A DNA stretch of 13,714 bases from a virus. Positions within the stretch are counted from its first letter, which is position 1, and the number at the start of each line of letters is the position of its first letter. The translations under genes and the position numbers were made by a program. The notes under the pieces were generated by a model. It had not been told where the DNA came from and searched no databases. It saw only the letters and a list, made by a program, of their open reading frames with translations. Of this stretch, positions 1 through 13,714 are shown in pieces. The stretch lies in the IMG/VR virus record IMGVR_UViG_3300045988_037911, one strand, 5' to 3'.

Positions 1-83
1 GATTAACCACCACTGGCGGACATTTGTCTTTCCCCCACGGACACATTTGTGCGCACAACACGGACACAATTTGTACGTGGCAG
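1..83. repeat. Left inverted terminal repeat (perfect part)
   Basis: Bases 1-83 are the exact reverse complement of 13632-13714, checked base by base. The first mismatch is at 84 versus 13631. Confidence 0.97.
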
Positions 84-95
84 ATGGACATGATG
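17..95. repeat. Phased iterons inside the ITR (mirrored at 13620-13698), a candidate origin or protein-binding array
   Basis: The iterons are CGGACA-TTTGT (17-27), CGGACA-CA-TTTGT (38-50), CGGACA-CAA-TTTGT (61-74) and a degenerate TGGACATGATG (85-95). GGACA cores start at 18, 39, 62 and 86, giving spacings of 21, 23 and 24 bp. A perfect 12-bp palindrome TTGTGCGCACAA lies at 47-58. Confidence 0.6.
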
Positions 96-154
96 CGCTG
101 TAGCGTGGTAAAGTACTGGTATATTATTTTCTTATGGTTAGTATTAGAAAATAT
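84..154. repeat. Degenerate inner extension of the left ITR
   Basis: An ungapped hand alignment of 84-154 with the reverse complement of 13561-13631 gives roughly three quarters identical positions. Shared blocks include GGACA, CTAAAG/GTAAAG, GGTATATTATTT, CTTATGG and ATTAGAA. Confidence 0.7.
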
Positions 155-241: not shown

Positions 242-268
242 AAGCCCGTGTATATTTCAACACGGGCT
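234..268 (-). terminator. Rho-independent terminator ending the single minus-strand gene array
   Basis: An 8-bp stem AGCCCGTG (243-250) / CACGGGCT (261-268) encloses a 10-nt loop. On the minus strand it is followed by TTCTTATAT. It starts 5 nt after the stop of the last gene (273). Confidence 0.6.
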
Positions 269-1796: not shown

Positions 1797-2489
1797 TTAA
1801 TAGACTTGCAGACAGAAACGGTTTTTGAAGCTGTTAATAATCACGTCAATGATATTATACAGTGCAACATCTCTTTCCGCTTCGATCATCTGTTGTGAAG
1901 TAGTCACGCCAATGTTGCCATGTGCACGGCCTTTCCGCAATAGGTTTCTATTTCCGGTTTCGTCCGTGGTATTCTCTGCTGACGTTTTAACCGCCACTGT
2001 GCCAACGTCCTTTTGTTCGCTCTCGTTCTTCTCGTTCTGCGTGTTGTTGTCTCGCTCCGTGGGTGTGAACTCAATTTCATTATATGCGCTCACATACTTC
2101 TGATCGTTGATAACGCCGTCCGTGTTACTCTGTCGGGTACTCGTGCCGTCTGTGACGGTTGTGCTTGTTCCGGTTGCATCGGCTTCCGTGTTTTTCTTCG
2201 TGTCCTCTGCTTCCGTCCATTCTTCCATTCGGTCATAGTTTTCAATAGGATTATACTCCAACAGTGTTGTTTTGTAAAGCCGTTCCCAGATCGGAAGCTC
2301 TTTAGCGCTCCACCTGCCAATCATGGCCTGCATGAAAATAGCATCCGGGTAGATGACTTCAAGCTCCGCAGTTTCCGCAAGCAGATTGTCCTTGACAAGC
2401 TCCACGTCCACGCCATCAGGGACAACCAACTCGCCCAGAATGCCGTCATTCAACCGTTTCAGTCCCAATAGGCTTACTGTTGCCGACAT
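1797..2489 (-). CDS. Putative lower collar / head-tail adaptor protein (230 aa)
   Basis: ATG at 2489 is preceded by a strong GGAGGTG SD. The gene lies directly downstream of the portal gene, as phi29 gp11 follows gp10, and overlaps the portal 3' end by 44 nt. The centre of the protein is a Thr/Asn/Asp/Glu-rich low-complexity region. The call rests on synteny only. Confidence 0.45.
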   Translation of the reverse strand: MSATVSLLGLKRLNDGILGELVVPDGVDVELVKDNLLAETAELEVIYPDAIFMQAMIGRWSAKELPIWERLYKTTLLEYNPIENYDRMEEWTEAEDTKKNTEADATGTSTTVTDGTSTRQSNTDGVINDQKYVSAYNEIEFTPTERDNNTQNEKNESEQKDVGTVAVKTSAENTTDETGNRNLLRKGRAHGNIGVTTSQQMIEAERDVALYNIIDVIINSFKNRFCLQVY

Positions 2490-3396
2490 TGTTCACACCT
2501 CCCTCATAAGCGTCAGGGAAACGCCACTCCACGGAAATATCTAAGCCAAACATATCATTTGTTGCCTTGATAGATTCCTGCAATTCCTCAAGCCACATAG
2601 CACACTTGCTCTGTGTCTCAACGTTATTTGCATTCACTTCATCCGTCACCAGCCGTTCCCGCTTGTCCGTGTTGGCGTTGGGAATGCCAATATCTGTGTC
2701 AAACATTGCTTCAATCTTGCGCATATCGCTCAAAATGTCGGAACTGATATAAACCTGCTTCAAGTTCTGTTCAAACGCTTCCCACGCTTTACTTCCGTCA
2801 TCCCGGAACAGGTTCTTGTCAATCACAGTGCAGACTTCGCCAGATGCTACACGGTCATACATCTTTTTGAAGCTCTCTGCGGCGGTCTTGTTACCTGCCG
2901 CAAACACATACGCAAGGTGTGTGTTCATAAGGTTCATTCCGACAGATTCAGCGCACAAGGCCAACATATCACCGTAGTAGCCCACAATATCCATAATACC
3001 GCCGTAATCCGGCTGTAAGCGGATAATTGTGCATTGGCTTCCGATTCTCGGCTCCATAATGCCACGCAACAGGGGATTTGTGATAATTGCGTTAGTCGGC
3101 TGATAGAACACATTGTAGCCGGTCAGGGTGCAACCCTGAGGAATAACGCCGAACTTGCTTGTATTGACCACTGCGAGATAGCCCCAGCAGTACAGCACAT
3201 ACAGGAAATAATTCTTACTCCAATGCTCCGGCAACTTCCACTTGAAAAGCGACATAGCCTTTTGAAGCAGGTACCGCCGGAAGTATTGGGACAGTGCTGT
3301 GTTTCTGCAATGGACGGTGGACGGACTGACGGCGGCGTTTTGCACGTTGATATAATCGTAGTTTGCCGGGATACCGTTACCAATCATTGCTATCAT
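2446..3396 (-). CDS. Portal (upper collar / connector) protein, phi29 gp10-like (316 aa)
   Basis: The C-terminal block IGIPNANTDKRERLVTDEVNANN...FGLDISVEWRF matches my recollection of phi29 gp10 ([23 protein letters not shown]...YGLNVKVKFRY), and the size is about the same (~309 aa). The ATG at 3396 overlaps the upstream stop (ATGA). An alternative ATG at 3387 has better SD spacing. Confidence 0.88.
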   Translation of the reverse strand: MIAMIGNGIPANYDYINVQNAAVSPSTVHCRNTALSQYFRRYLLQKAMSLFKWKLPEHWSKNYFLYVLYCWGYLAVVNTSKFGVIPQGCTLTGYNVFYQPTNAIITNPLLRGIMEPRIGSQCTIIRLQPDYGGIMDIVGYYGDMLALCAESVGMNLMNTHLAYVFAAGNKTAAESFKKMYDRVASGEVCTVIDKNLFRDDGSKAWEAFEQNLKQVYISSDILSDMRKIEAMFDTDIGIPNANTDKRERLVTDEVNANNVETQSKCAMWLEELQESIKATNDMFGLDISVEWRFPDAYEGGVNNVGNSKPIGTETVE

Positions 3397-5415: not shown

Positions 5416-6630
5416 TTAGTCAAGCAACAGCACAACGCCCTTCTCGCTCATGTCCATGATAGCCCGGAAGTTAACATGGTCATAGGTGTTCCAATAGCCA
5501 GCCTTGGCATTGAACGGAGTGACAGCAGCCCAGTTCTTGACCTGAGCATATCCAAGCGCTTCCTCGTCAAAGATAACACCAAAGATACCTGCCTGTTCAA
5601 CAGCTTCACCGGTAGTAGCAGTGCCGGTAGTATTGGTATACACAGGAGTAACGTTGATGGAATCAGGGGTTTCAATCGACTGCCAGAAGTTCACGCCCTC
5701 GTAGTCGGTAAACTTCAAGTAGTTATCATGGAAGGTGTTAGCCTTAACCATAGCGTCAAACTGATCCATAGCCTTAGCATACAGGTAAACCTTCTGCTTA
5801 TTGGCAGGAGTATGACGCATAACGTGCTTCTCATTGATAACAGTCTGATACATTTCAGAACGTTCAGTCATCATGCGAGAAATAGTGGCGATTCTTGCAT
5901 ACGCCCACTGCATAAAGCTACTGAAATTCTCAGGCTGATAGACATTCTGTGCGGTCAACTTCAAACCAGTTTCTGCATTATACTCAGTCAGCAAGTGCAC
6001 AACTCTGGCGGTCTGCTTCTCAGCCAACAGAGAACCAATGTAGTTAGCAAGGATACCTCTTGCAATGTTCTCTCTATACTGCTCCAACTTGTCAGTGCGG
6101 TTTCCGGTCACAAGGGAGTTGAAACGCATAAATTCCTCTGCATTGGTAAAGGCTACATCCAACTGGTCTTTGAAAATAGTGTAGCTATTCTCGTAAACAG
6201 ACTGACCATAGAAGTTCACCTGCAAAATGTCTGGCTTATTCAGTGCGTACATATCCACACTCTGACCATCTCCAATGGCATTGGGCGCTTTTGCGGTGTC
6301 ATAACCAACAGGCCAAGTGAATCGGGCATCGTCTTCAATCGGCTTGTCTGCAATGGACAGCTTACGTACTGCATTGCCCCAACGTTCCATAGACATTTCC
6401 AGTCCAGAGAGCTTACGGCTGTAAGGTCTAATGCTGAAAATCGTTCTGCCCCACATCTGAGACATTGCGTTCAGAATAGGGTCATAGCCAGTCTTGAGTG
6501 CAGTCTGTGCCACACTGACAAACTCGCCGGGTGTACTGGCAGCAATAGTTACCTGTCCAGTTGCCTGTTTAACAAGGCTCTGCAAAATAGTACCAGCCTG
6601 AAAAACAGTCATGTCATTTACATTAGGCAT
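5416..6630 (-). CDS. Major capsid protein (404 aa)
   Basis: This is the largest head-module ORF. It lies immediately downstream of a small scaffold-like gene and upstream of tail genes, matching the phi29 gp7-gp8-gp9 order. An AAAGGAGA SD is present. I could not confirm similarity to phi29 gp8 by eye. Confidence 0.7.
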   Translation of the reverse strand: MPNVNDMTVFQAGTILQSLVKQATGQVTIAASTPGEFVSVAQTALKTGYDPILNAMSQMWGRTIFSIRPYSRKLSGLEMSMERWGNAVRKLSIADKPIEDDARFTWPVGYDTAKAPNAIGDGQSVDMYALNKPDILQVNFYGQSVYENSYTIFKDQLDVAFTNAEEFMRFNSLVTGNRTDKLEQYRENIARGILANYIGSLLAEKQTARVVHLLTEYNAETGLKLTAQNVYQPENFSSFMQWAYARIATISRMMTERSEMYQTVINEKHVMRHTPANKQKVYLYAKAMDQFDAMVKANTFHDNYLKFTDYEGVNFWQSIETPDSINVTPVYTNTTGTATTGEAVEQAGIFGVIFDEEALGYAQVKNWAAVTPFNAKAGYWNTYDHVNFRAIMDMSEKGVVLLLD

Positions 6631-7300: not shown

Positions 7301-7957
7301 TTATTTTCTTCCTTTCTTCAAATAAATTAAAATGTAGTGCGCTGTACGCCTACTGGAATAAACTTGACGTTTTTCCTTCTTGAAATATCCTTGAGAACTT
7401 CCACCACAGTCAAGCATAACTGCATCCTGCCATCCATAAGACTGCAATAAAGTTGCAAGCTGTTCAGGCGTTTTCTTGGCTGTGCTTCCGTCCTTGGAAG
7501 CGTAAAGACATAGTCTCCGTTGTCCGTTTACAAGTTTAGTTCCAATAGCTGTTCTTCCACGTCTACCGCCTTGTGCTACATTATAGATAGGCTTGCTTAA
7601 TTCTTTACCATTCATTACAATGTTAGAACAAGCAACGTAGTTGCTCCACCTGTCTGTAGGTACAATGTCAAGGTGGAAACTGTTGGTATCAAAGTTATCC
7701 CAAACATAACCACGATAACTGTACTTGCCATGAAACAAGACCTCACTATCATACTTCAATGGACAAACAGGTTTGCCATCTCTCATACTGTAAAGAGTTC
7801 CGTTAATTCCGTAGTCGGCACCAGTCTTTTTCATAATCGTGGACAACGGCAACCGCTTTCTTGTTTTCCTATTCCATACGTTTTGGTAAATTTCAATTTT
7901 TTCAATGTCATCAAAGGGAATTGATACAGCTATTTCATTCTGAATCTTTGCTCCCAC
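7301..7957 (-). CDS. Phosphodiester glycosidase (NAGPA / DUF2233-like) domain protein, a candidate lysin or wall-glycopolymer hydrolase
   Basis: The motifs GINGTLY, GRTAIGTKLVNGQRRLCLYASKDG and TPEQLATLLQSYGWQDAVMLDCGGSSQ fit the NAGPA-family pattern (xNGGFF ... RTAIG ... DGR ... LDGGGSS). The track ORF starts at GTG 7966, but AAAGGAG (7968-7974) is properly spaced for GTG 7957. The gene overlaps the holin 3' end. Confidence 0.6.
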   Translation of the reverse strand: MGAKIQNEIAVSIPFDDIEKIEIYQNVWNRKTRKRLPLSTIMKKTGADYGINGTLYSMRDGKPVCPLKYDSEVLFHGKYSYRGYVWDNFDTNSFHLDIVPTDRWSNYVACSNIVMNGKELSKPIYNVAQGGRRGRTAIGTKLVNGQRRLCLYASKDGSTAKKTPEQLATLLQSYGWQDAVMLDCGGSSQGYFKKEKRQVYSSRRTAHYILIYLKKGRK

Positions 7958-8159
7958 AAGTAACACGCTCCTTTAAAAGACTTACAACCTCTTTTAAATC
8001 TCGCAGTGCTTCTGTGTTTTCCTTAACAACCTCAGTCCAACGCTCACTTTCAGCGGCGTGACTTTCACGTTCCTTATTCTGCATCCAAAACATGACTCCT
8101 ACGCATACAATAGGGAAACCAAGATTGCTAACAAGCTGGGTAACAGTTGTGACGTCCAT
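7935..8159 (-). CDS. Holin, BhlA/UviB-like (74 aa)
   Basis: The true start is taken as ATG 8159, preceded by AAGGAGAATGAT. There is a single N-terminal TM segment (LVSNLGFPIVCVGVMFWM) followed by NKERES and a charged helical tail, matching the B. subtilis BhlA pattern as I recall it. The 114-aa track ORF is an upstream read-through of non-coding structured DNA. Confidence 0.65.
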   Translation of the reverse strand: MDVTTVTQLVSNLGFPIVCVGVMFWMQNKERESHAAESERWTEVVKENTEALRDLKEVVSLLKERVTCGSKDSE

Positions 8160-8189
8160 ATCATTCTCCTTATAGCCGGATTTTAGATT

Positions 8190-8262
8190 GAGAAGGGGGT
8201 TTCTTGCCCCAGTCAAGGGCTTGCACCAGCTTCCGGCTGTGACTTTGTGCAACCCCCTTCTC
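8190..8262 (-). ncRNA. 73-nt three-way-junction structured RNA element; candidate miniature packaging RNA (pRNA) or 5' leader stabiliser
   Basis: The minus strand reads 5'-GAGAAGGGGGUU GCAC AAAGUCA CAGC CGGAA GCUG GUGC AA GCCC UUGACUG GGGC AAGA AACCCCCUUCUC-3'. It has a perfect 12-bp closing helix and two internal hairpins. The bulge AGUCA is complementary to the hairpin loop UGACU. It lies in the only sizeable internal intergenic gap (8160-8278). Confidence 0.4.
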
Positions 8263-8269
8263 TGATTAT

Positions 8270-8299
8270 AAAATAGCATTATCGGAGATATTTCGTCAA
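8270..8299 (-). promoter_or_regulatory. Candidate sigma-A-type promoter with extended -10, firing at the first base of the structured RNA
   Basis: On the minus strand: -35 TTGACG (8299-8294), an 18-nt spacer, TGc, then -10 TATTTT (8275-8270). The predicted start at about 8263/8262 is the first base of the 12-bp helix. The core ATGCTATTTTATA is nearly identical to the right-end promoter ATGCTATTCTATA. Confidence 0.45.
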
Positions 8300-9316
8300 G
8301 AGATTTTCACAAAGATACTCCTCAAATGTTATTTTCTGTTGCATATAGGCTTCCCACAACCATCCATACATCCGTCTGAACCGCTGAATATCGGCTTCAC
8401 TGTCGGAATATTGTGGTGGGCTACCTGCTTTGTGCATTGAGACATAATATGTGCCGTCAGACTTGTGTCTGTATACACAGATTTTCGATAACGCACACAC
8501 GGGAACAAATTCCTTTATAGGACGGCTCCCTACATTGCCCATGTCATTGAAAGAGAACTTGTTATCAAGTGCCATTTCGGAGAAACGTGTTCCTTCTGTT
8601 GCTCTATACAGAACAGTATTGCGTTTTTCTTCCGAAATAGGAGACTTCTGTAACATATACAAGCAGATACCACGGTGGTTATCTTGATAGACTTCTCTGC
8701 CCTTCTCTAACATATCAGTCGCTTTCTTAACAAGATTGAAACCAATAAAGACAGGGTTTGCAACATCGTTTGCGTTTGCGAGACATAGAAGTTGTACAGG
8801 TTTCTTTCCTTGAAGCTCTCTGTTTCTGTTTACAGTCTCATAACAGTTCATAAGTGCTTCAAATTCATTCTTAATTGGTCTTTCTTGACGCTCTGGAATA
8901 AATTCATCAAATATCATAAGGTCAACGTCAGAAGCATCAAAACCTCTGATATTTGAGAATGTGGAGAGTGCGGCTGAATACCCAATAGGCTTACCGTCTG
9001 GAATTTGTTTCCCATCTTCATTTACTTTAAAGTAATAGAACGCACTGTTATACTTTGTAACAGGCGAACAGCTAATGTTTAAATTCCTATCCTCACATAT
9101 TCGCTTAAATGGTGAAAATTCAGGTCTTGTCACAATATCTGCTTGCGCTTGCGTTCTTCTTATGAATAGGAATGTTCTTTTTTCTTCCAAACACTCAACC
9201 AAACTTCCATAGGTTTTGCCTGTCCCTCGCCCTCCAACTGCGAAATTGAAGGGCAAGGAACGGCTCAATAGTTCATGGATATTCAGATAGCCGCTATCTA
9301 AGTAAATGCGGCTCAT
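8279..9316 (-). CDS. DNA encapsidation (packaging) ATPase, phi29 gp16-like (345 aa)
   Basis: Four blocks match my recollection of phi29 gp16:
- Walker A: FNFAVGGRGTGKTYG versus LNFVIGARGIGKSYA.
- FLFIRR versus FIYVRR.
- Walker B: LMIFDEFIPER versus TIVFDEFIREK.
- LCLANANDVANPVFIGFNLV versus ICLSNAVSVVNPYFLFFNLV. Confidence 0.92.
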   Translation of the reverse strand: MSRIYLDSGYLNIHELLSRSLPFNFAVGGRGTGKTYGSLVECLEEKRTFLFIRRTQAQADIVTRPEFSPFKRICEDRNLNISCSPVTKYNSAFYYFKVNEDGKQIPDGKPIGYSAALSTFSNIRGFDASDVDLMIFDEFIPERQERPIKNEFEALMNCYETVNRNRELQGKKPVQLLCLANANDVANPVFIGFNLVKKATDMLEKGREVYQDNHRGICLYMLQKSPISEEKRNTVLYRATEGTRFSEMALDNKFSFNDMGNVGSRPIKEFVPVCALSKICVYRHKSDGTYYVSMHKAGSPPQYSDSEADIQRFRRMYGWLWEAYMQQKITFEEYLCENLLTKYLR

Positions 9317-9683: not shown

Positions 9684-9833
9684 TTATTTACCACAGCTAT
9701 GCTGTTGGTTACATTCATATTTGAAAATTAAATCCCAAACATTATCTATAAATTCTTCTTCCGTGTAGAACGCATCATCTACATAGTCATCATACATTTT
9801 AATGACAGCATCTACAAATTCTTTATCACTCAT
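9684..9833 (-). CDS. Acidic 49-aa miniprotein (not in the ORF track)
   Basis: Hand translation gives MSDKEFVDAVIKMYDDYVDDAFYTEEEFIDNVWDLIFKYECNQQHSCGK. The ATG at 9833 overlaps the polymerase stop, and AGCAGGT lies 6 nt upstream. It has 13 Asp/Glu against 4 Lys. It exactly fills the gap between the polymerase and SSB genes. Confidence 0.55.
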   Translation of the reverse strand: MSDKEFVDAVIKMYDDYVDDAFYTEEEFIDNVWDLIFKYECNQQHSCGK

Positions 9834-11844
9834 ATTCATACCTGCTTTCAGTCAATAGTCGCTTATAGTCGGCTGTTAATCCTAACGTGTAAGTGCTTGG
9901 TCGTAAGCAGACATTAGACGTAATTTTTCCTGTTCGTCCTTCCGCTGTGTATTCCGAAATGCTGGGTTTGTCATTATAAACTGCTTCAAGTCCTCCTGCT
10001 TTCTTAAATGTGAATCCCTCATGAAATGCTGTGATACCTCCATGTTCCTCTAACTCCTTTCCTCCAAGATTCTTTGAAACTCCTGCTATAGTGCAAACTA
10101 ATTTGTCCTCTGGCTTCTCTCTGTATACATATTTCTTTGCCCCCATCGTTCTAAACTCACACATATCATGTTCTTTCTCATAGACACCCATATAATGTGT
10201 GATTCCAGAGGGGTCTGTTGCATATGCTCCGCTTTCCTTACTGTCTTTAATACGTTCTGCGTTAAACTTATCGAGATTTATCTCTCCAAGGTATTTCACA
10301 GAATCCGTATCACAGTATACAAATTGTGGAGCATTGGGGTCATCCGTATCACCGTGGGCAAGTCTGATACCTTCCTCAAGTCTATATCGTGCCCACGCTG
10401 TCACCCACACGCCCCACTGGTATGCAAGGAACGCCTTTCGGTTATATGCTAATAGTAAACCGGCTTCGTCCTCGTTCTGTTCTTTAAAGTCATTATCTAT
10501 AAAAAGGATCGACTGCTTTACCGGGTCTTGCGCGCACATTCCATAAAGTGAGTTTAACTTGTTCTTAGATTTCATGTACAAAAGTTCCTGTCCATCAACG
10601 TTCTTTAGCTCTGTCTTGTAGTGGTAGTATTGGCAGATCGTTTTTATTAGCGGCTTAGGCAAGTACCCATACCGGGCAGTTGCTACATCGTAAAATTTCA
10701 TATCCGCCCATGCGTACTCACTTAACAGGATTTTCAAATCAATGTCTGTTATTGTGGTTTCCAGATAGTCAGCGGATATGATTCTGCCATTATCAAGCAA
10801 AGCATTTTGAACGTGTCTGCACTTGGCTAATGATAAATAGGGGCAGCCCCAGTCAACCCTTTGTAGGTGCGCGCCTGTAATTGCTACACGCATGATACAG
10901 GCTTTTTGTCGCTTACCTAACATTTTAATAACTTCATCAAATGGAACATCGCCCAGCCGGTAAAATTCGCTTACCGGAAATTTGCAGTTGCACATTACAT
11001 CAGGGTAACTGCTTGATCGGTCCGCACTGTGGACATTGTGCAATGTGTAATTTACATAGTACCGGTTTGCGTGAGTGTTTCCGCCTCTGAATGCTTCCCT
11101 AAGCATCTTGTATGTCTCAAAGTCTGGTAGCTGTTCCTTAACGAAATTGTAAGACACTTCCGACATTGCTTTCTTGGCATCCCGGCGAACGTAGCCGGTA
11201 GACGTTAGCGGAAATGTGTATAAATTATCTCCGTCATGCTCCATTTCAATCTGAATTGCTTCGGTTAAGCCTTGCACATCATGTATGCAATAGGCTAATT
11301 CCTGTTCACTCAATTCTGTCCATGGATAGCGTACTTTGTCATAGTCAAAAGTTCCGGTCAGCTTCTTGTGCTGTACGCCCATTTTCTTAGTATATGTGTC
11401 TAAGTTCATGTTGCTGTGCAGGTAACTGCAACGGAACTCAAAGCAATTGTACATATCACATTTCAAGACTTTGCGAGATCGGACAGCAAAAACTTCTTCC
11501 GGCTCAAATGGGTAAATACCTCTTAGAAACTGAAATTCATAGGAAAGATTGTGAACAAAAACAACCAGAAAAGTATCATCAAGAATACTCTGCAACTTCT
11601 TTTGAAATTGTGTAAATTCATCCCATGTTCTCCCAACAACCGTGTAGGCGTTTCCAAATTGCCATTGCCAAACATACATGATAGAGTTTTCAATATCTGC
11701 AAGTCTGGTTGTCTCAATATCAAACGCTGTTACAAGGTCTTTATATTTCCGGCGCTTCTTTGTGCGTTGGTTGCCTTTCTTCCGTTTTACTTCCGGTATT
11801 TGCTCAAGCCATACAAGTGGAAATTCTGACGGCTTAATTACCAT
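9826..11844 (-). CDS. Protein-primed family-B DNA polymerase (672 aa)
   Basis: All the expected motifs are present: ExoI AFDIETT, ExoII HNLSYEFQF, ExoIII YCIHDV, motif A DRSSSYPDV, motif B KNKLNSLYGM, motif C YCDTDSV (identical to phi29) and KxY GAKKYVY. ITRs and an upstream terminal-protein-sized gene support the protein-primed call. The ATG overlaps the upstream stop (ATGGTAA). Confidence 0.95.
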   Translation of the reverse strand: MVIKPSEFPLVWLEQIPEVKRKKGNQRTKKRRKYKDLVTAFDIETTRLADIENSIMYVWQWQFGNAYTVVGRTWDEFTQFQKKLQSILDDTFLVVFVHNLSYEFQFLRGIYPFEPEEVFAVRSRKVLKCDMYNCFEFRCSYLHSNMNLDTYTKKMGVQHKKLTGTFDYDKVRYPWTELSEQELAYCIHDVQGLTEAIQIEMEHDGDNLYTFPLTSTGYVRRDAKKAMSEVSYNFVKEQLPDFETYKMLREAFRGGNTHANRYYVNYTLHNVHSADRSSSYPDVMCNCKFPVSEFYRLGDVPFDEVIKMLGKRQKACIMRVAITGAHLQRVDWGCPYLSLAKCRHVQNALLDNGRIISADYLETTITDIDLKILLSEYAWADMKFYDVATARYGYLPKPLIKTICQYYHYKTELKNVDGQELLYMKSKNKLNSLYGMCAQDPVKQSILFIDNDFKEQNEDEAGLLLAYNRKAFLAYQWGVWVTAWARYRLEEGIRLAHGDTDDPNAPQFVYCDTDSVKYLGEINLDKFNAERIKDSKESGAYATDPSGITHYMGVYEKEHDMCEFRTMGAKKYVYREKPEDKLVCTIAGVSKNLGGKELEEHGGITAFHEGFTFKKAGGLEAVYNDKPSISEYTAEGRTGKITSNVCLRPSTYTLGLTADYKRLLTESRYEYE

Positions 11845-12500
11845 AGAAATTCATCTAACGCCTGCAATAACTCACCGGAAGATCGTTCAACCACATTTGA
11901 CTTGCGTTCAAATGGTGCATCTCGCTCCGATTGCCACGCTTGAAACGCCCGGAAAATTTCGGCTGATTTATTGACTTTCTGTGTTGATCGTTCAAATGCT
12001 TCTGAATTTTTGATTTTCTCATATACGTCCATTGCTACGAGACTACCATAGCCACGCATATTTGACGCTTTCCAATACCGGAAGAACTCGCCCAGATCAT
12101 TGAAATTTTGTTCGTTAACGTATTCATAGCCGTGTTCATGGAAAGTCCTGATTGCTTCTTTCCGATAGCGCTTAATGCCTCTAAGTGTGCCGGTCTTGGC
12201 CTGCATCATTTTAGCGAGGTCTGCTAATAGGATTTTCTGCTCGTATGGTTTCAGTTCTGACGCTGGTTTATACTTGTCCTTATTATAATAGTATGTCTTG
12301 CTTGCTCTGCCGATCTCGCTTTCTTCCATACGCTTCAAGCGCTTTACGGCGATTGCTCTTAGTCTCTGGTATTCATGCTTGATTGTTTCAGGTGTCCACA
12401 CGTCAGCATGTCGGATTGCGTCCAGTGTGTAAAGTTCCGGGGTGTCTTTTGGGTCAATCACTTCCCCGGTTTCCGGGTCTGCTGTTCGGTAAAACTTCAT
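11838..12500 (-). CDS. Putative terminal protein (220 aa)
   Basis: It lies immediately upstream of the polymerase gene and is translationally coupled to it, as in phi29 (gene 3 then gene 2) and tectiviruses. It is basic and helical with an AAAGGAGA SD. I see no recognisable sequence motif, so the call rests on position only. Confidence 0.5.
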   Translation of the reverse strand: MKFYRTADPETGEVIDPKDTPELYTLDAIRHADVWTPETIKHEYQRLRAIAVKRLKRMEESEIGRASKTYYYNKDKYKPASELKPYEQKILLADLAKMMQAKTGTLRGIKRYRKEAIRTFHEHGYEYVNEQNFNDLGEFFRYWKASNMRGYGSLVAMDVYEKIKNSEAFERSTQKVNKSAEIFRAFQAWQSERDAPFERKSNVVERSSGELLQALDEFLW

Positions 12501-12651
12501 GCTTTGCTATCTCCTTTCGGAAAAGCTCACGGCAAAACGCCGAGGTAGACATATCACGTTCAGCGGCTATGACCTCAAGCGTTTCCTTAAGGTCAGCCGG
12601 AACGGATAGTGTCAAGTGGGTAGTTGCCCGGTGCTTAAAACGGCTTCGCAT
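12454..12651 (-). CDS. Ribbon-helix-helix (CopG/Arc-like) DNA-binding protein (65 aa)
   Basis: THLTLSVPADLKETLEVIAAERDMSTSAFCRELFRKEI fits the strand-helix-helix RHH pattern. The gene overlaps the upstream ORF by 40 nt and the terminal-protein gene by 47 nt. The SD GAAAGGAG lies 14 nt upstream, which is rather far. Confidence 0.55.
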   Translation of the reverse strand: MRSRFKHRATTHLTLSVPADLKETLEVIAAERDMSTSAFCRELFRKEIAKHEVLPNSRPGNRGSD

Positions 12652-13557: not shown

Positions 13558-13587
13558 ATTATATATTCTAATATCCACCATAAGCAA
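13558..13587 (-). promoter_or_regulatory. Candidate early promoter (outer, inside the degenerate ITR)
   Basis: On the minus strand: -35 TTGCTT (13587-13582), an 18-nt spacer, then -10 TATAAT (13563-13558). The left-end copy of this segment has decayed to TTTCTT ... AATATG. Confidence 0.5.
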
Positions 13588-13631
13588 ATAATATACCTCC
13601 GCTTTAGCACGTTAAAGCACACCCTGTCCGC
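13561..13631. repeat. Degenerate inner extension of the right ITR
   Basis: See 84-154. This is the same hand alignment. Confidence 0.7.
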
Positions 13632-13714
13632 CTGCCACGTACAAATTGTGTCCGTGTTGTGCGCACAAATGTGTCCGTGGGGGAAAGACAAATGTCCGCC
13701 AGTGGTGGTTAATC
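13632..13714. repeat. Right inverted terminal repeat (perfect part)
   Basis: It is the exact reverse complement of 1-83. Confidence 0.97.

What the first reader, a model, noticed from the sequence alone, without database searches (positions are those of the whole stretch)
8190..8262. Miniature pRNA candidate: a three-way-junction RNA with complementary bulge and hairpin loops directly downstream of the packaging ATPase gene
**Seen in sequence**
- The only large internal intergenic gap (8160-8278) folds on the minus strand as follows:
  - helix A, 12 perfect bp: GAGAAGGGGGUU/AACCCCCUUCUC
  - helix C: GCAC/GUGC
  - a 7-nt 5'-side bulge: AAAGUCA
  - helix E: CAGC-CGGAA-GCUG
  - a 2-nt junction
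  - hairpin D: GCCC-UUGACUG-GGGC
  - a return to helix A
- The bulge AGUCA is perfectly complementary to UGACU in the D loop.
- A promoter-like element (TTGACG, 18 nt, TGc, TATTTT; 8299-8270) predicts a start at the first base of helix A.

**Established knowledge**
- phi29-type packaging motors need a pRNA.
- The conserved pRNA architecture runs in this same 5' to 3' order: a 5'/3' helix A, a three-way junction, a C helix with a CE bulge loop topped by the E hairpin, and a D hairpin.
- The CE and D loops base-pair between molecules to form the ring on the connector.
- Helix A contacts the gp16 ATPase.

**Inference**
- This is a roughly 73-nt minimal pRNA, about half the size of the phi29 core, encoded next to its ATPase partner rather than at the genome end.
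- Competing explanations are a 5' stem-loop stabiliser of the late (holin to structural) transcript, or an early/late boundary attenuator. No U-tract follows helix A, so the 3' end is undefined.
- Because all stems are Watson-Crick, the plus-strand transcript would fold equivalently. The strand assignment rests on the promoter and on gene orientation.
Basis: partly seen in the sequence, partly recalled or inferred. Interest (0 to 1): 0.85.

Follow-up and report, generated by a model that had tools for sequence, protein, structure and literature searches.

The report
Miniature pRNA-like RNA in gut phages
A 73-base folded RNA just after the DNA-packaging ATPase gene of this tiny phi29-like phage is real and is conserved by compensatory mutations in more than 150 related gut-phage genomes; it has the same helix-and-loop layout as the packaging RNA (pRNA) of phage phi29, so it is the first well-supported candidate for such an RNA outside Bacillus phages, though its function is untested.

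Summary
It is not chance: MFE z = -3.8.

**Conservation**
- A covariance model finds one copy per genome, on the gene strand only, in about 185 related phage contigs or loci. These have packaging-ATPase identity down to about 35%.
- 28 of 29 base pairs show double-sided compensatory changes.
- This includes the bulge/D-loop pairing, which has 27 different sequences.

**Relation to phi29 pRNA**
- Rfam's pRNA model does not detect it.
- The helix order, bulge side, 4-bp E stem and loop-loop pairing nevertheless mirror phi29 pRNA at roughly 60% of its size.

**Context**
- In about 90% of genomes, including this window, the RNA is the 5' end of the late (holin-first) transcript. Many of these also carry a covarying "X box" next to the ribosome-binding site that pairs with the E hairpin.
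- In one clade the same RNA is a stand-alone gene: promoter, RNA, terminator, then convergent genes.
- In another clade a larger, roughly 105-110-nt version has its own terminator.
- Its core job therefore cannot require a downstream gene in cis.

**Verdict**
- The best reading is a miniature prohead/packaging RNA, at about 0.55.
- No RNA-level or packaging evidence exists yet.
- A cultured relative that carries the RNA, Amedibacillus phage AD70P3, makes the idea testable.

The parts
8190..8262 (-). The 73-nt structured RNA (three-way junction); the single family member in the window
   Evidence: MFE fold z = -3.84. Covariance model R1 scores 82 bits, E = 9e-21, on the minus strand only. 89.9% of cells are paired across 69 distinct homologues, against 53.8% in shuffles.
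8251..8262 (-). Helix A, 5' strand (GAGAAGGGGGUU); pairs with 8190-8201
   Evidence: All 12 pairs show double-sided compensatory changes in relatives (helix 1).
8190..8201 (-). Helix A, 3' strand (AACCCCCUUCUC)
   Evidence: helix 1.
8247..8250 (-). Helix C, 5' strand (GCAC); pairs with 8223-8226
   Evidence: 95.7% paired; 4 of 4 pairs covary (helix 2).
8240..8246 (-). CE-type 5' bulge AAAGUCA. AGUCA (8240-8244) pairs with the D loop and directly abuts helix E.
   Evidence: 27 distinct pairing strings in 46 bulge/loop combinations. Mean Watson-Crick run with the genome's own partner is 4.24, against 2.49 with other genomes' loops. Column counts are, helix 3.
8227..8239 (-). Hairpin E: stem CAGC/GCUG with near-invariant pentaloop CGGAA (8231-8235)
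   Evidence: Stem is 100% paired and 4 of 4 pairs covary (helix 4). The loop C-N-G-A-A is conserved across the alignment.
8206..8220 (-). Hairpin D: stem GCCC/GGGC with loop UUGACUG. UGACU (8211-8215) is complementary to the bulge.
   Evidence: 93.4% paired; 4 of 4 pairs covary (helix 5).
8202..8205 (-). Junction D-to-A (AAGA), semi-conserved
   Evidence: Alignment A3.
8270..8299 (-). Sigma-70-type promoter: -35 TTGACG 8299-8294 (inside the last ATPase codons), TG 8278-8277, -10 TATTTT 8275-8270. The predicted start is at or next to the first base of helix A.
   Evidence: Scan hit. 53 of 82 distinct relatives have a TTGACA-like hexamer, a 16-19-nt spacer and TAnnnT ending a median of 6 nt before helix A. 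Independent promoters exist where the RNA is detached from the ATPase gene.
8174..8180 (-). X box UCCGGCU, 9 nt 3' of helix A and 2 nt 5' of the holin SD. It is complementary to AGCCGGA (the E 5' strand plus loop, 8232-8238).
   Evidence: Covaries with the E 5' strand in 12 sequence classes. Own score 18.8 against 13.3 for cross-pairings.
7935..8171 (-). SD AAGGAG (8171-8166) and the holin gene (ATG 8159 to stop 7935), the first gene of the late operon that the RNA heads
   Evidence: PHROG 4898 holin, E = 2.4e-6, matching from residue 44 of the long ORF. Sequence.
8279..9316 (-). gp16-type packaging ATPase, immediately upstream of the RNA
   Evidence: Pfam PF05894, E = 6.7e-25; PHROG 2150 terminase, E = 6e-37.

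Best explanation
The element is a small, stable, structured RNA of a previously undescribed family. The family is specific to a large clade of 12-15-kb phi29-like (protein-primed, gp16-ATPase) phages from gut and similar anaerobic habitats.

**Shown**
- It is transcribed from a strong sigma-70-type promoter whose start coincides with the first base of helix A.
- It folds into a three-way junction made of a closing helix A, a C-E arm and a D hairpin.
- The C-E arm carries a 7-nt 5' bulge directly abutting a 4-bp E hairpin with a conserved C-N-G-A-A loop.
- The D hairpin loop is complementary to the bulge.
- Every helix and the bulge/D-loop pairing are maintained by compensatory change.
- The RNA occurs once per genome.
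- In some clades it is a free-standing gene that ends at its own terminator.

**Inferred, as the most likely mechanism**
- It works like phi29 prohead RNA.
- Copies join head-to-tail through intermolecular bulge/D-loop kissing to form a ring at the portal vertex of the prohead.
- The conserved E loop docks on capsid or connector.
- The helix A spokes recruit the gp16-type ATPase.

**In this window and most relatives**
- The RNA is made as the 5' end of the late (holin-first) mRNA.
- It would be released by cleavage in the AU-rich spacer, or by partial termination where a U tract follows helix A.
- The downstream X box pairs with the E stem-loop in uncleaved transcripts. This would mask the docking loop, tune translation of the first late gene, or both.
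For: **Phage type**
- gp16 ATPase, phi29-type major capsid protein, connector, protein-primed DNA polymerase and SSB are all present.
- 154-nt inverted terminal repeats indicate a complete 13.7-kb linear genome.

**Structure**
- 89.9% of cells are paired, against 53.8% in shuffles and about 40% when partners are slid.
- 28 of 29 pairs have double-sided changes.
- The covariation score is 0.87 against 0.19.

**Loop-loop pairing**
- 27 different complementary sequences are seen.

**Same layout as phi29 pRNA in Rfam's own consensus line**
- The order is A, then C, then a 5' bulge whose pairing bases abut a 4-bp E stem.
- There are 0 nt between E 3' and C 3'.
- The D hairpin has a 5-7-nt loop and is followed by the return to A.

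**One copy per genome, gene strand only**
-.

**Action in trans**
- L232, L266, L267 and L268 carry promoter, RNA, intrinsic terminator and then convergent late genes.
- Three different terminator hairpins follow an identical RNA core.
- The L244 group has a roughly 105-110-nt version with an interrupted helix A and its own terminator. A separately regulated late promoter follows.
- In the L166/L172 clade the RNA is far from the ATPase gene. Neither neighbour is therefore obligatory.

**Other support**
- In phi29 the pRNA E-loop bases U54-G55-A56 contact the capsid rather than the connector (PMC6542822). This fits a conserved N-G-A-A E loop here.
- Linker lengths are short: 0 nt on both sides of E, 1-nt flanks in the D loop, and a 2-nt C/D junction. 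By my geometric reasoning this makes an intramolecular 5-bp pairing strained. This is inference, not computation.
- No other pRNA candidate exists in the window: the Rfam scan is negative and there are no tRNA or tmRNA genes.
Against: - Rfam RF00044 gives no hit even at E = 10, in the window or in relatives.
- Sizes and junction differ from phi29. Helix C is 4 bp against 9. Helix A is 12 bp without bulges, against about 25 bp with the essential CCA bulge. The unpaired junction bases lie on the D-to-A side rather than the C-to-D side.
- In 87 of 98 distinct contexts the RNA sits within 60 nt of an SD and ORF with no terminator. All known pRNAs are separate genes near a genome end.
- The X-box/E pairing is a cis feature unknown in pRNAs.
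- The connector lacks a basic N-terminal patch like phi29's RKR. That patch's role rests on my own knowledge, not on a paper read here.
- My scans did not find this RNA in the cultured phi29-like phages of C. innocuum, C. perfringens, Eggerthella, Bifidobacterium and Streptococcus. Separately, the asccphi28 authors report 'no evidence for a pRNA' (PMC7823558). An RNA adaptor is therefore not universal in the group.
- There is no experimental evidence of a discrete RNA, of oligomerisation or of prohead binding.
Confidence: 0.55

Rival explanations
1. A trans-acting small RNA with a job other than packaging. Examples would be a regulatory sRNA, a decoy or sponge for a host factor or defence protein, or an RNA-polymerase-binding RNA. 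On this reading the bulge/D-loop pairing is an intramolecular pseudoknot that compacts the fold, and the E loop is the binding site.
For: - Stand-alone gene versions with their own terminators exist.
- The E loop is conserved.
- There is no similarity to RF00044.
- The E loop can base-pair with an mRNA site, the X box. This shows that it is an accessible pairing surface.
Against: - The detailed match to pRNA architecture, in exactly the phage group that uses a gp16 ATPase, would be coincidence.
- No X-box-like target is seen in the late leader of the stand-alone clade.
- The short linkers disfavour an intramolecular 5-bp pairing (inference).
Confidence: 0.2
2. A purely cis-acting 5' leader of the late operon. 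It would be a 5'-terminal structure that protects the mRNA from 5' decay, or one that sets translation of the first late gene (usually the holin) through the E/X-box pairing next to the ribosome-binding site. The bulge/D-loop pairing would be intramolecular.
For: - The predicted transcription start is flush with helix A.
- 87 of 98 contexts have an SD and ORF within 60 nt, and the median distance from helix A to the SD is 14 nt.
- The RNA travels with the late operon, not the ATPase gene, in the convergent L166/L172 clade.
- The X box covaries with the E 5' strand in 12 classes. In other clades the complement of the E loop is fused to the SD.
Against: - In L232, L266, L267 and L268 the RNA has no downstream gene on its strand and ends at a terminator, while the late operon there has a different leader.
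- In the L244 group a terminator and a second promoter separate the RNA from the holin.
- The X box is absent from about half of the distinct sequences.
- The first gene after the RNA is not always a holin (L152, L153).
Confidence: 0.15
3. An early/late boundary terminator or attenuator, or a put-like processive antitermination RNA acting on the polymerase that made it.
For: - It lies at the boundary between replication and late genes.
- Helix A is a strong GC-rich stem, and 28 of 82 relatives have at least 5 U in the 8 nt that follow it.
Against: - In the window no U tract follows helix A and no terminator is called on the minus strand.
- The only minus-strand terminator called within or after the late operon is the final one at 268-243, so there is nothing to antiterminate.
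- A terminator needs neither a conserved E loop nor a covarying loop-loop pair.
Confidence: 0.04
4. Protein-coding: an N-terminal extension of the holin, read from the ATG at 8279.
For: The frame is open from 8279 to 7935.
Against: - The holin family match starts at residue 44.
- A strong SD precedes the ATG at 8159.
- Close relatives have 1-nt indels and lose the upstream ATG.
- Substitutions are compensatory in RNA helices rather than synonymous.
Confidence: 0.01

Closest known systems
Prohead/packaging RNA (pRNA) of phi29 and related Bacillus phages (Rfam RF00044)
   Same: - The host phage type is the same: gp16 ATPase, phi29-type capsid and connector, protein-primed linear genome.
- Both have a 5'/3' closing helix A and a three-way junction.
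- In both, the C arm carries a 5'-side bulge whose pairing bases directly abut a 4-bp E stem.
- Both have 0 nt between E 3' and C 3', and a D hairpin with a 5-7-nt loop.
- In both, a 3-6-bp bulge/D-loop complementarity differs between phages and covaries.
- Both have a conserved E loop.
- Some clades encode the RNA as promoter-RNA-terminator. There the terminator hairpin occupies the position of phi29 domain II.
   Different: - The covariance model detects no similarity.
- The core is about 73 nt against 117-120 nt.
- Helix C is 4 bp against 9, and helix D is 4-5 bp against 6.
- Helix A is short and, in the window type, uninterrupted. It lacks the CCA bulge.
- The unpaired junction bases lie on the D-to-A side (4 nt), not the C-to-D side (UUU).
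- The E loop is C-N-G-A-A against UUGAGU.
- It is usually fused to the 5' end of the late mRNA rather than being a separate gene at the genome end.
- An X box pairs with E.
- Intermolecular pairing, prohead binding and a need for the RNA in packaging are all untested.
5'-terminal stabiliser or leader structures of Gram-positive and phage mRNAs, and translational operators at the 5' end of phage mRNAs (for example the T4 gene 32 leader pseudoknot); recalled from my own knowledge
   Same: - The structure begins at the transcript's first base.
- An AU-rich spacer and an SD follow within about 5-25 nt.
- A long-range pairing (E with the X box) lies next to the ribosome-binding site.
   Different: - Those elements are simple hairpins or pseudoknots tied to one gene.
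- This RNA keeps its fold when detached from any downstream gene, as in the L232 clade and the L244 group.
- It has a conserved apical loop and a hypervariable, covarying loop-loop pair.
Three-way-junction RNAs held together by intramolecular loop-loop contacts (purine riboswitch aptamer, hammerhead ribozymes with loop-bulge contacts); recalled from my own knowledge
   Same: - The size is about 70 nt.
- Three helices meet at a junction.
- A hairpin loop pairs with a loop or bulge of the neighbouring arm.
   Different: - Neither a conserved junction core nor a ligand pocket is present. The junction bases are few and variable.
- None of these families is hit in Rfam.
- The pairing here is a full 3-6-bp Watson-Crick helix with very short linkers.

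Membership tests
phi29-type pRNA (Rfam RF00044) | Detected by the family covariance model at its gathering score | tested here: not met
   No hit at E <= 10 in the window or in relatives. The positive control, phi29 pRNA, scores 145 bits.
phi29-type pRNA (Rfam RF00044) | Helix A formed by the 5' and 3' ends closes a three-way junction with a C-E arm and a D hairpin, in that 5'-to-3' order | tested here: met
   MFE fold. Consensus structure and covariation in 69 distinct sequences. Compared with the Rfam consensus line for phi29.
phi29-type pRNA (Rfam RF00044) | A 5'-side CE bulge complementary to the D loop, with co-variation between phages | tested here: met
   27 distinct complementary strings. 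Own-partner Watson-Crick run is 4.24 against 2.49 for cross-pairings.
phi29-type pRNA (Rfam RF00044) | The CE/D pairing is intermolecular and builds an oligomeric ring | not testable with these tools
   Only a geometric argument from linker lengths is available (0, 0, 1, 1 and 2 nt). Settling it needs native gels, trans-complementation of loop mutants, or cryo-EM.
phi29-type pRNA (Rfam RF00044) | Bound to proheads and required for DNA packaging; absent from mature virions | not testable with these tools
   No experimental data exist. The cultured carrier, Amedibacillus phage AD70P3, was identified.
phi29-type pRNA (Rfam RF00044) | Encoded by a phage with a gp16-type ATPase and a phi29-type connector and capsid | tested here: met
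   PF05894, PF05352, PF25622 and PF03175 are all hit.
phi29-type pRNA (Rfam RF00044) | A separate transcription unit (own promoter and terminator), not part of an mRNA | tested here: inconclusive
   - The promoter criterion is met.
- In the window no terminator is present and the SD follows 18 nt after helix A.
- The criterion is met in the L232/L266/L267/L268 clade and in the L244 group.
phi29-type pRNA (Rfam RF00044) | Helix A carries conserved bulges (the CCA bulge) needed for ATPase function; a 3' domain II is present | tested here: not met
   - Helix A is 12 perfect bp in the window and is uninterrupted in the R1 alignment.
- An interrupted helix A occurs only in the larger L244 and L216 variants.
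Cis-regulatory 5' leader of the late operon | Always lies between a transcription start and the first gene's ribosome-binding site on the same strand | tested here: not met
   True for 87 of 98 contexts, including the window. It fails in L232, L266, L267 and L268, which have no same-strand gene. It also fails in the L244 group, where a terminator and a second promoter intervene.
Cis-regulatory 5' leader of the late operon | Conserved pairing between the element and RBS-proximal sequence | tested here: met
   The X box is complementary to the E 5' strand plus loop. It covaries in 12 classes and is present in roughly half of the distinct sequences.
Intrinsic terminator / attenuator | A GC-rich stem immediately followed by a U tract | tested here: not met
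   No minus-strand terminator is called in 7900-8500. At least 5 U in the 8 nt after helix A occurs in only 28 of 82 relatives.

The most novel reading that the evidence does not exclude
The RNA is a true minimal prohead RNA that most of these phages embed in the 5' end of their late mRNA. Its conserved E loop alternates between two partners: the prohead, and the X box beside the holin ribosome-binding site. Assembly of packaging motors (or release of the RNA) and translation of the lysis and late genes would then be coupled through a single 73-nt RNA. This would be a built-in link between the progress of virion assembly and lysis timing.
Probability: 0.15. Interest if true: 0.95.

Novelty: new variant of a known kind. 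Interest (0 to 1): 0.8.

Why it matters
**State of the field**
- pRNA is the only known RNA that forms part of a viral DNA-packaging motor. It is also a workhorse of RNA nanotechnology.
- By current accounts it is confined to phi29 and related Bacillus phages. A 2024 review (PMC11476376) says so, and a 2025 structure-based search (PMC12670572) added only pRNAs recovered with Bacillus-phage pRNA models.
- How other phi29-like phages dock their nuclease-less ATPase on the portal is an open question. For asccphi28 the authors report 'no evidence for a pRNA' (PMC7823558).

**What this family would add if it is a pRNA**
- It would show that RNA-scaffolded motors are widespread in gut phages.
- It would define a core roughly 40% smaller than phi29's.
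- It would supply dozens of natural orthogonal kissing-loop pairs.
- It would reveal a new way of encoding such an RNA, as an mRNA leader.

**If it is not a pRNA**
- It is still a new, strongly covarying RNA family at the head of the late operon, and it has a cultured model phage.

Tried and rejected
- **Rfam scans of the window and 15 related or cultured genomes.** There was no pRNA or other credible family hit. The weak snoRNA and miRNA hits are chance.
- **ARAGORN.** It found no tRNA or tmRNA.
- **Nucleotide BLAST of the locus against cultured phages.** No match.
- **Exact-pattern scan for the E-core.** It recovered only the close clade plus about 20 chance hits in unrelated contigs. Broader patterns were judged too unspecific to run.
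- **Single-protein locus searches with distant ATPases.** These found almost nothing. Alignment-based queries were needed.
- **Model R1 sensitivity.** R1 misses divergent members (AD70P3, L168, the L232 clade, the L244 group). These were recognised by eye and with a home-made descriptor scan, which gave 0 hits in 541 kb of shuffled sequence.
- **Coding hypothesis for the open frame 8279-7935.** Rejected.
- **Hammerhead, other ribozymes or a riboswitch.** Rejected, because there is no conserved junction core and no Rfam hit.
- **Processive antitermination.** Considered unlikely, because no internal terminators lie in the late operon.
- **Other strongly folded spots.** The windows at 12535-12614 and 9195-9274 lie inside ORFs and are not pRNA-like.
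- **Genome ends.** The left end holds a terminator, not a pRNA.
- **Connector N-terminus as a test of RNA docking.** The window's connector has no basic patch. This carries little weight, because the phi29 cryo-EM shows pRNA contacting the capsid rather than the connector (PMC6542822).
Full report
**What the window is**

The 13,714-base window is an essentially complete linear phage genome. It has 154-nt inverted terminal repeats, and all of its genes lie on the minus strand. Reading along that strand, the order is:
- small early genes;
- a 220-aa protein in the position of a terminal protein;
- a protein-primed B-family DNA polymerase (9826-11844);
- a phi29-type SSB;
- a gp16-type packaging ATPase (8279-9316);
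- the element under study;
- a holin (8159-7935) and a lysin;
- the phi29-type capsid protein, connector and tail genes;
- a final terminator at 268-243.

RNAfold gives the same three-way junction as the minimum-energy fold: -36.5 kcal/mol, z = -3.84, with none of 200 shuffles as stable.

That is true for energy alone. The family covariance model resolves it, scoring 82 bits on the minus strand against 11.7 bits on the plus strand.

The 'gap' is formally an open frame in phase with the holin. Three results show it is not coding:
- the holin family match begins at residue 44 of that frame;
- a strong AAGGAG precedes the ATG at 8159;
- close relatives carry 1-nt indels in the stretch.

**It is a conserved RNA family**

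ATPase-guided searches of IMG/VR gave several hundred related contigs of 12-15 kb. The protein database holds 2,983 ATPase relatives.

A covariance model built from 50 hand-checked sequences finds exactly one hit per genome, always on the strand of the late genes:
- 77 of 80 loci in the first set;
- 7 of 10 in the convergent clade, where the three misses are the shortest contigs of that set;
- 47 of 77 and 53 of 64 in two more distant sets.

On 69 distinct sequences, 89.9% of pair cells are standard pairs. The controls give 53.8% after shuffling and about 40% when partners are slid by 1-3 columns. 28 of 29 pairs show changes on both sides. The covariation score is 0.87 against 0.19.

The bulge/D-loop pairing covaries too. 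In 46 distinct bulge/loop combinations there are 27 different complementary strings, among them AGUCA/UGACU, GGUCA/UGACC, GACCA/UGGUC, GUGCA/UGCAC and GCACA/UGUGC. The mean Watson-Crick run is 4.24 with a genome's own partner and 2.49 with the loops of other genomes.

The E loop is nearly invariant as C-N-G-A-A. Some clades have a plain GGAA tetraloop or UUGGGAG/UUGGAGA instead.

**Comparison with phi29 pRNA**

Rfam's model RF00044 scores phi29 pRNA at 145 bits. It gives nothing for the window or for any relative, even at E = 10. The RNA is therefore not a member of that family as the model defines it.

Rfam's own structure line for phi29 nevertheless shows the same plan:
- helix A, then helix C;
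- a 5' bulge whose pairing bases (AACC) directly abut a 4-bp E stem;
- no bases between E 3' and C 3';
- a D hairpin with a 5-nt loop (UGGUU);
- the return to helix A.

The differences are size and junction layout:

| Feature | This RNA | phi29 pRNA |
|---|---|---|
| Helix C | 4 bp | 9 bp |
| Helix D | 4-5 bp | 6 bp |
| Helix A | 12 bp, no bulges | about 25 bp, bulged |
| Unpaired junction bases (A/C, C/D, D/A) | 0 / 2 / 4 | 1 / 3 / 0 |

From the literature:
- pRNA loops pair through 3-4 nt and covary (PMC12670572).
- The A helices contact the ATPase, and a 71-nt core was crystallised (PMC5066667).
- In the prohead structure the pRNA E-loop bases U54-G55-A56 contact the capsid protein, with no close contact to the connector (PMC6542822).
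- pRNA is regarded as unique to phi29 and related Bacillus phages (PMC11476376).
- The asccphi28 authors report 'no evidence for a pRNA' (PMC7823558).

**Context: mostly a leader**

A consensus-like promoter ends a median of 6 nt before helix A in 53 of 82 distinct relatives. In the window it is TTGACG-18-(TG)TATTTT. The -35 hexamer is embedded in the conserved C-terminal L-L-T-K-Y codons of the ATPase.

In 87 of 98 distinct contexts a Shine-Dalgarno sequence and an ORF follow within 60 nt. That ORF is usually a holin, and holins of more than one family occur. The median distance from helix A to the SD is 14 nt, and only 28 of 82 have a U-rich tail. The window has none.

In the clade represented by MT835998 and L172-L181 the late genes converge on the early genes. 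There the RNA lies about 8 kb from the ATPase gene, on the other strand, still at the head of the late operon. Adjacency to the ATPase gene is therefore not the invariant.

**An extra cis feature: the X box**

In the window clade and several others, a segment 8-11 nt after helix A and just 5' of the SD is complementary to the E 5' strand plus loop. In the window this is UCCGGCU at 8180-8174.

It covaries with the E stem through 12 classes, for example:
- AGCCGGA/UCCGGCU;
- GCCCGG/CCGGGC;
- GCUCGGAA/UUCCGAGU;
- CGGACGGA/UCCGUCCG.

The own-partner score is 18.8 against 13.3 for cross-pairings. In other clades the complement of the E loop is fused to the SD, as in UUCCGAGG and UUUCGGAGG. About half of the distinct sequences lack the feature.

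**Context: sometimes a stand-alone gene**

This is the observation that shifts the balance.

*The L232 clade.* L232 and its relatives L266, L267 and L268 have ATPases 98%, 87% and 53% identical to L232's. In all four:
- the RNA follows the ATPase gene with its own promoter;
- the RNA is followed at once by an intrinsic terminator;
- the next genes are convergent late genes on the opposite strand, including a tail spike and the connector.

Three different terminator hairpins follow an identical RNA core in L232, L266 and L267, and L268 has a fourth.

A descriptor scan finds exactly one family member in each of these genomes and none in 541 kb of shuffled sequence. The late operon of L232 starts with a different leader.

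*The L244 group.* Seven near-identical contigs plus the divergent L263 carry a larger version of 105-110 nt. Its features are:
- an interrupted helix A;
- an extra hairpin;
- an E loop of UUGGGAG;
- the same bulge/D-loop logic, with GUACA/UGUAC changing to UGUGC/GCACA.

This version has its own 11/12 promoter. In L244 and its six near-identical relatives a covarying intrinsic terminator follows the RNA, then operator-like palindromes, a separate late promoter and a holin homologous to the window's. In L263 a weaker hairpin follows and the holin SD comes next.

*Conclusion from context.* The RNA is thus detachable both from the ATPase gene and from the late mRNA. Its conserved function cannot require a downstream gene in cis.

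**Interpretation**

The best-supported reading is a small trans-acting RNA that most genomes economically encode at the 5' end of the late transcript. Three points make a prohead-RNA-like role the leading mechanism, at about 0.55:
- the phage type;
- the detailed architectural match to pRNA, including a hypervariable but always complementary bulge/D-loop pair;
- the conserved apical E loop.

The very short linkers around the pairing segments make an intramolecular 5-bp helix strained, as was argued historically for phi29. This is my geometric inference, not a computation.

The X box would then be an add-on of leader-type genomes. It could mask the E loop in uncleaved mRNA, tune translation of the first late gene, or do both.

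The rivals are:
- another trans function, about 0.2;
- a purely cis-acting leader, about 0.15, which the stand-alone clades disfavour;
- a terminator, attenuator or antiterminator, about 0.04;
- coding sequence, about 0.01.

Evidence against the pRNA reading:
- no model-level similarity to RF00044;
- an unbulged, short helix A;
- no terminator in most genomes;
- a connector without the basic N-terminal patch;
- absence of the RNA from several cultured phi29-like phages.

**Distribution and tractability**

The family extends to ATPases about 35% identical to the window's by the covariance model (L167) and to about 32% by eye and descriptor scan. It occurs in human faecal contigs (MT835998, MT836263).

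It is also present in the cultured Amedibacillus phage AD70P3 of the Guelinviridae, at L165 5862-5933. There the E loop is CCGAA and the complementary pair is AUCC/GGAU. That phage offers an immediate experimental system.

Noticed in passing
window 1-154 and 13561-13714: 154-nt inverted terminal repeats, 89% complementary. The window is therefore a complete or near-complete 13.7-kb linear genome of a protein-primed phage, among the smallest tailed-phage genomes.
   Followed up: partly
window 9195-9274 (minus strand): An 18-bp almost perfect hairpin (z about -5 to -6) lies inside the ATPase coding region. It spans the codons of the Walker A motif (LPFNF..GGRGTGKT). It may be a regulatory or pausing structure.
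   Followed up: no
window 12454-12651 (minus strand): The most strongly folded 80-nt window of the genome (12535-12614, z = -6.3) lies inside a 65-aa ORF. The ORF's sequence (LTLSVPADLKETLEVIAAERDMSTSAFCRELF) looks like a ribbon-helix-helix repressor. The ORF overlaps the start of the 220-aa gene at 12500.
   Followed up: partly
window 8294-8299; alignment A1 C-terminus: The -35 hexamer of the RNA/late promoter is encoded by the conserved C-terminal Leu-Leu-Thr-Lys-Tyr codons of the ATPase. Protein and promoter constraints therefore overlap.
   Followed up: partly
L115, L119, L120, L133 (between -35 and -10 of the RNA promoter); L223 and L244-L259 (downstream of the RNA): A perfect palindrome GTTTCACGTGAAAC recurs at late promoters. 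It sits either between the promoter hexamers or as a pair flanking a second late promoter. It is probably the operator of a phage repressor that controls the early/late switch.
   Followed up: no
L187 (Streptococcus phage Cp-7) 4860-5045: The deposited annotation places a promoter and a terminator around an untranslated stretch of about 135 nt at the head of the late operon. That stretch folds stably (z = -4.6) as a long irregular hairpin plus terminator. It may be an analogous late-leader or small RNA in a different phi29-like lineage.
   Followed up: partly
L205 (about 5990-6080): A divergent family member in which both the bulge and the D loop carry the palindrome UGAUCA. Bulge-bulge and loop-loop self-pairing are therefore possible in addition to bulge-loop pairing.
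   Followed up: no
L183 (Clostridium phage CI461P2) 11261-12184, compared with window 2446-3396: The connector of CI461P2, in which this RNA was not found, begins MSSKRRKIK. This is a basic patch like phi29's MARKR. The connectors of the window phage and of AD70P3 have no such patch.
   Followed up: partly
window 243-268 (minus strand): A clean bidirectional intrinsic terminator (AGCCCGUGU...ACACGGGCU plus a U tract) lies after the last late gene. It is the only convincing minus-strand terminator in the genome. Early transcription can therefore read through the ATPase gene into the RNA and the late genes.
   Followed up: partly
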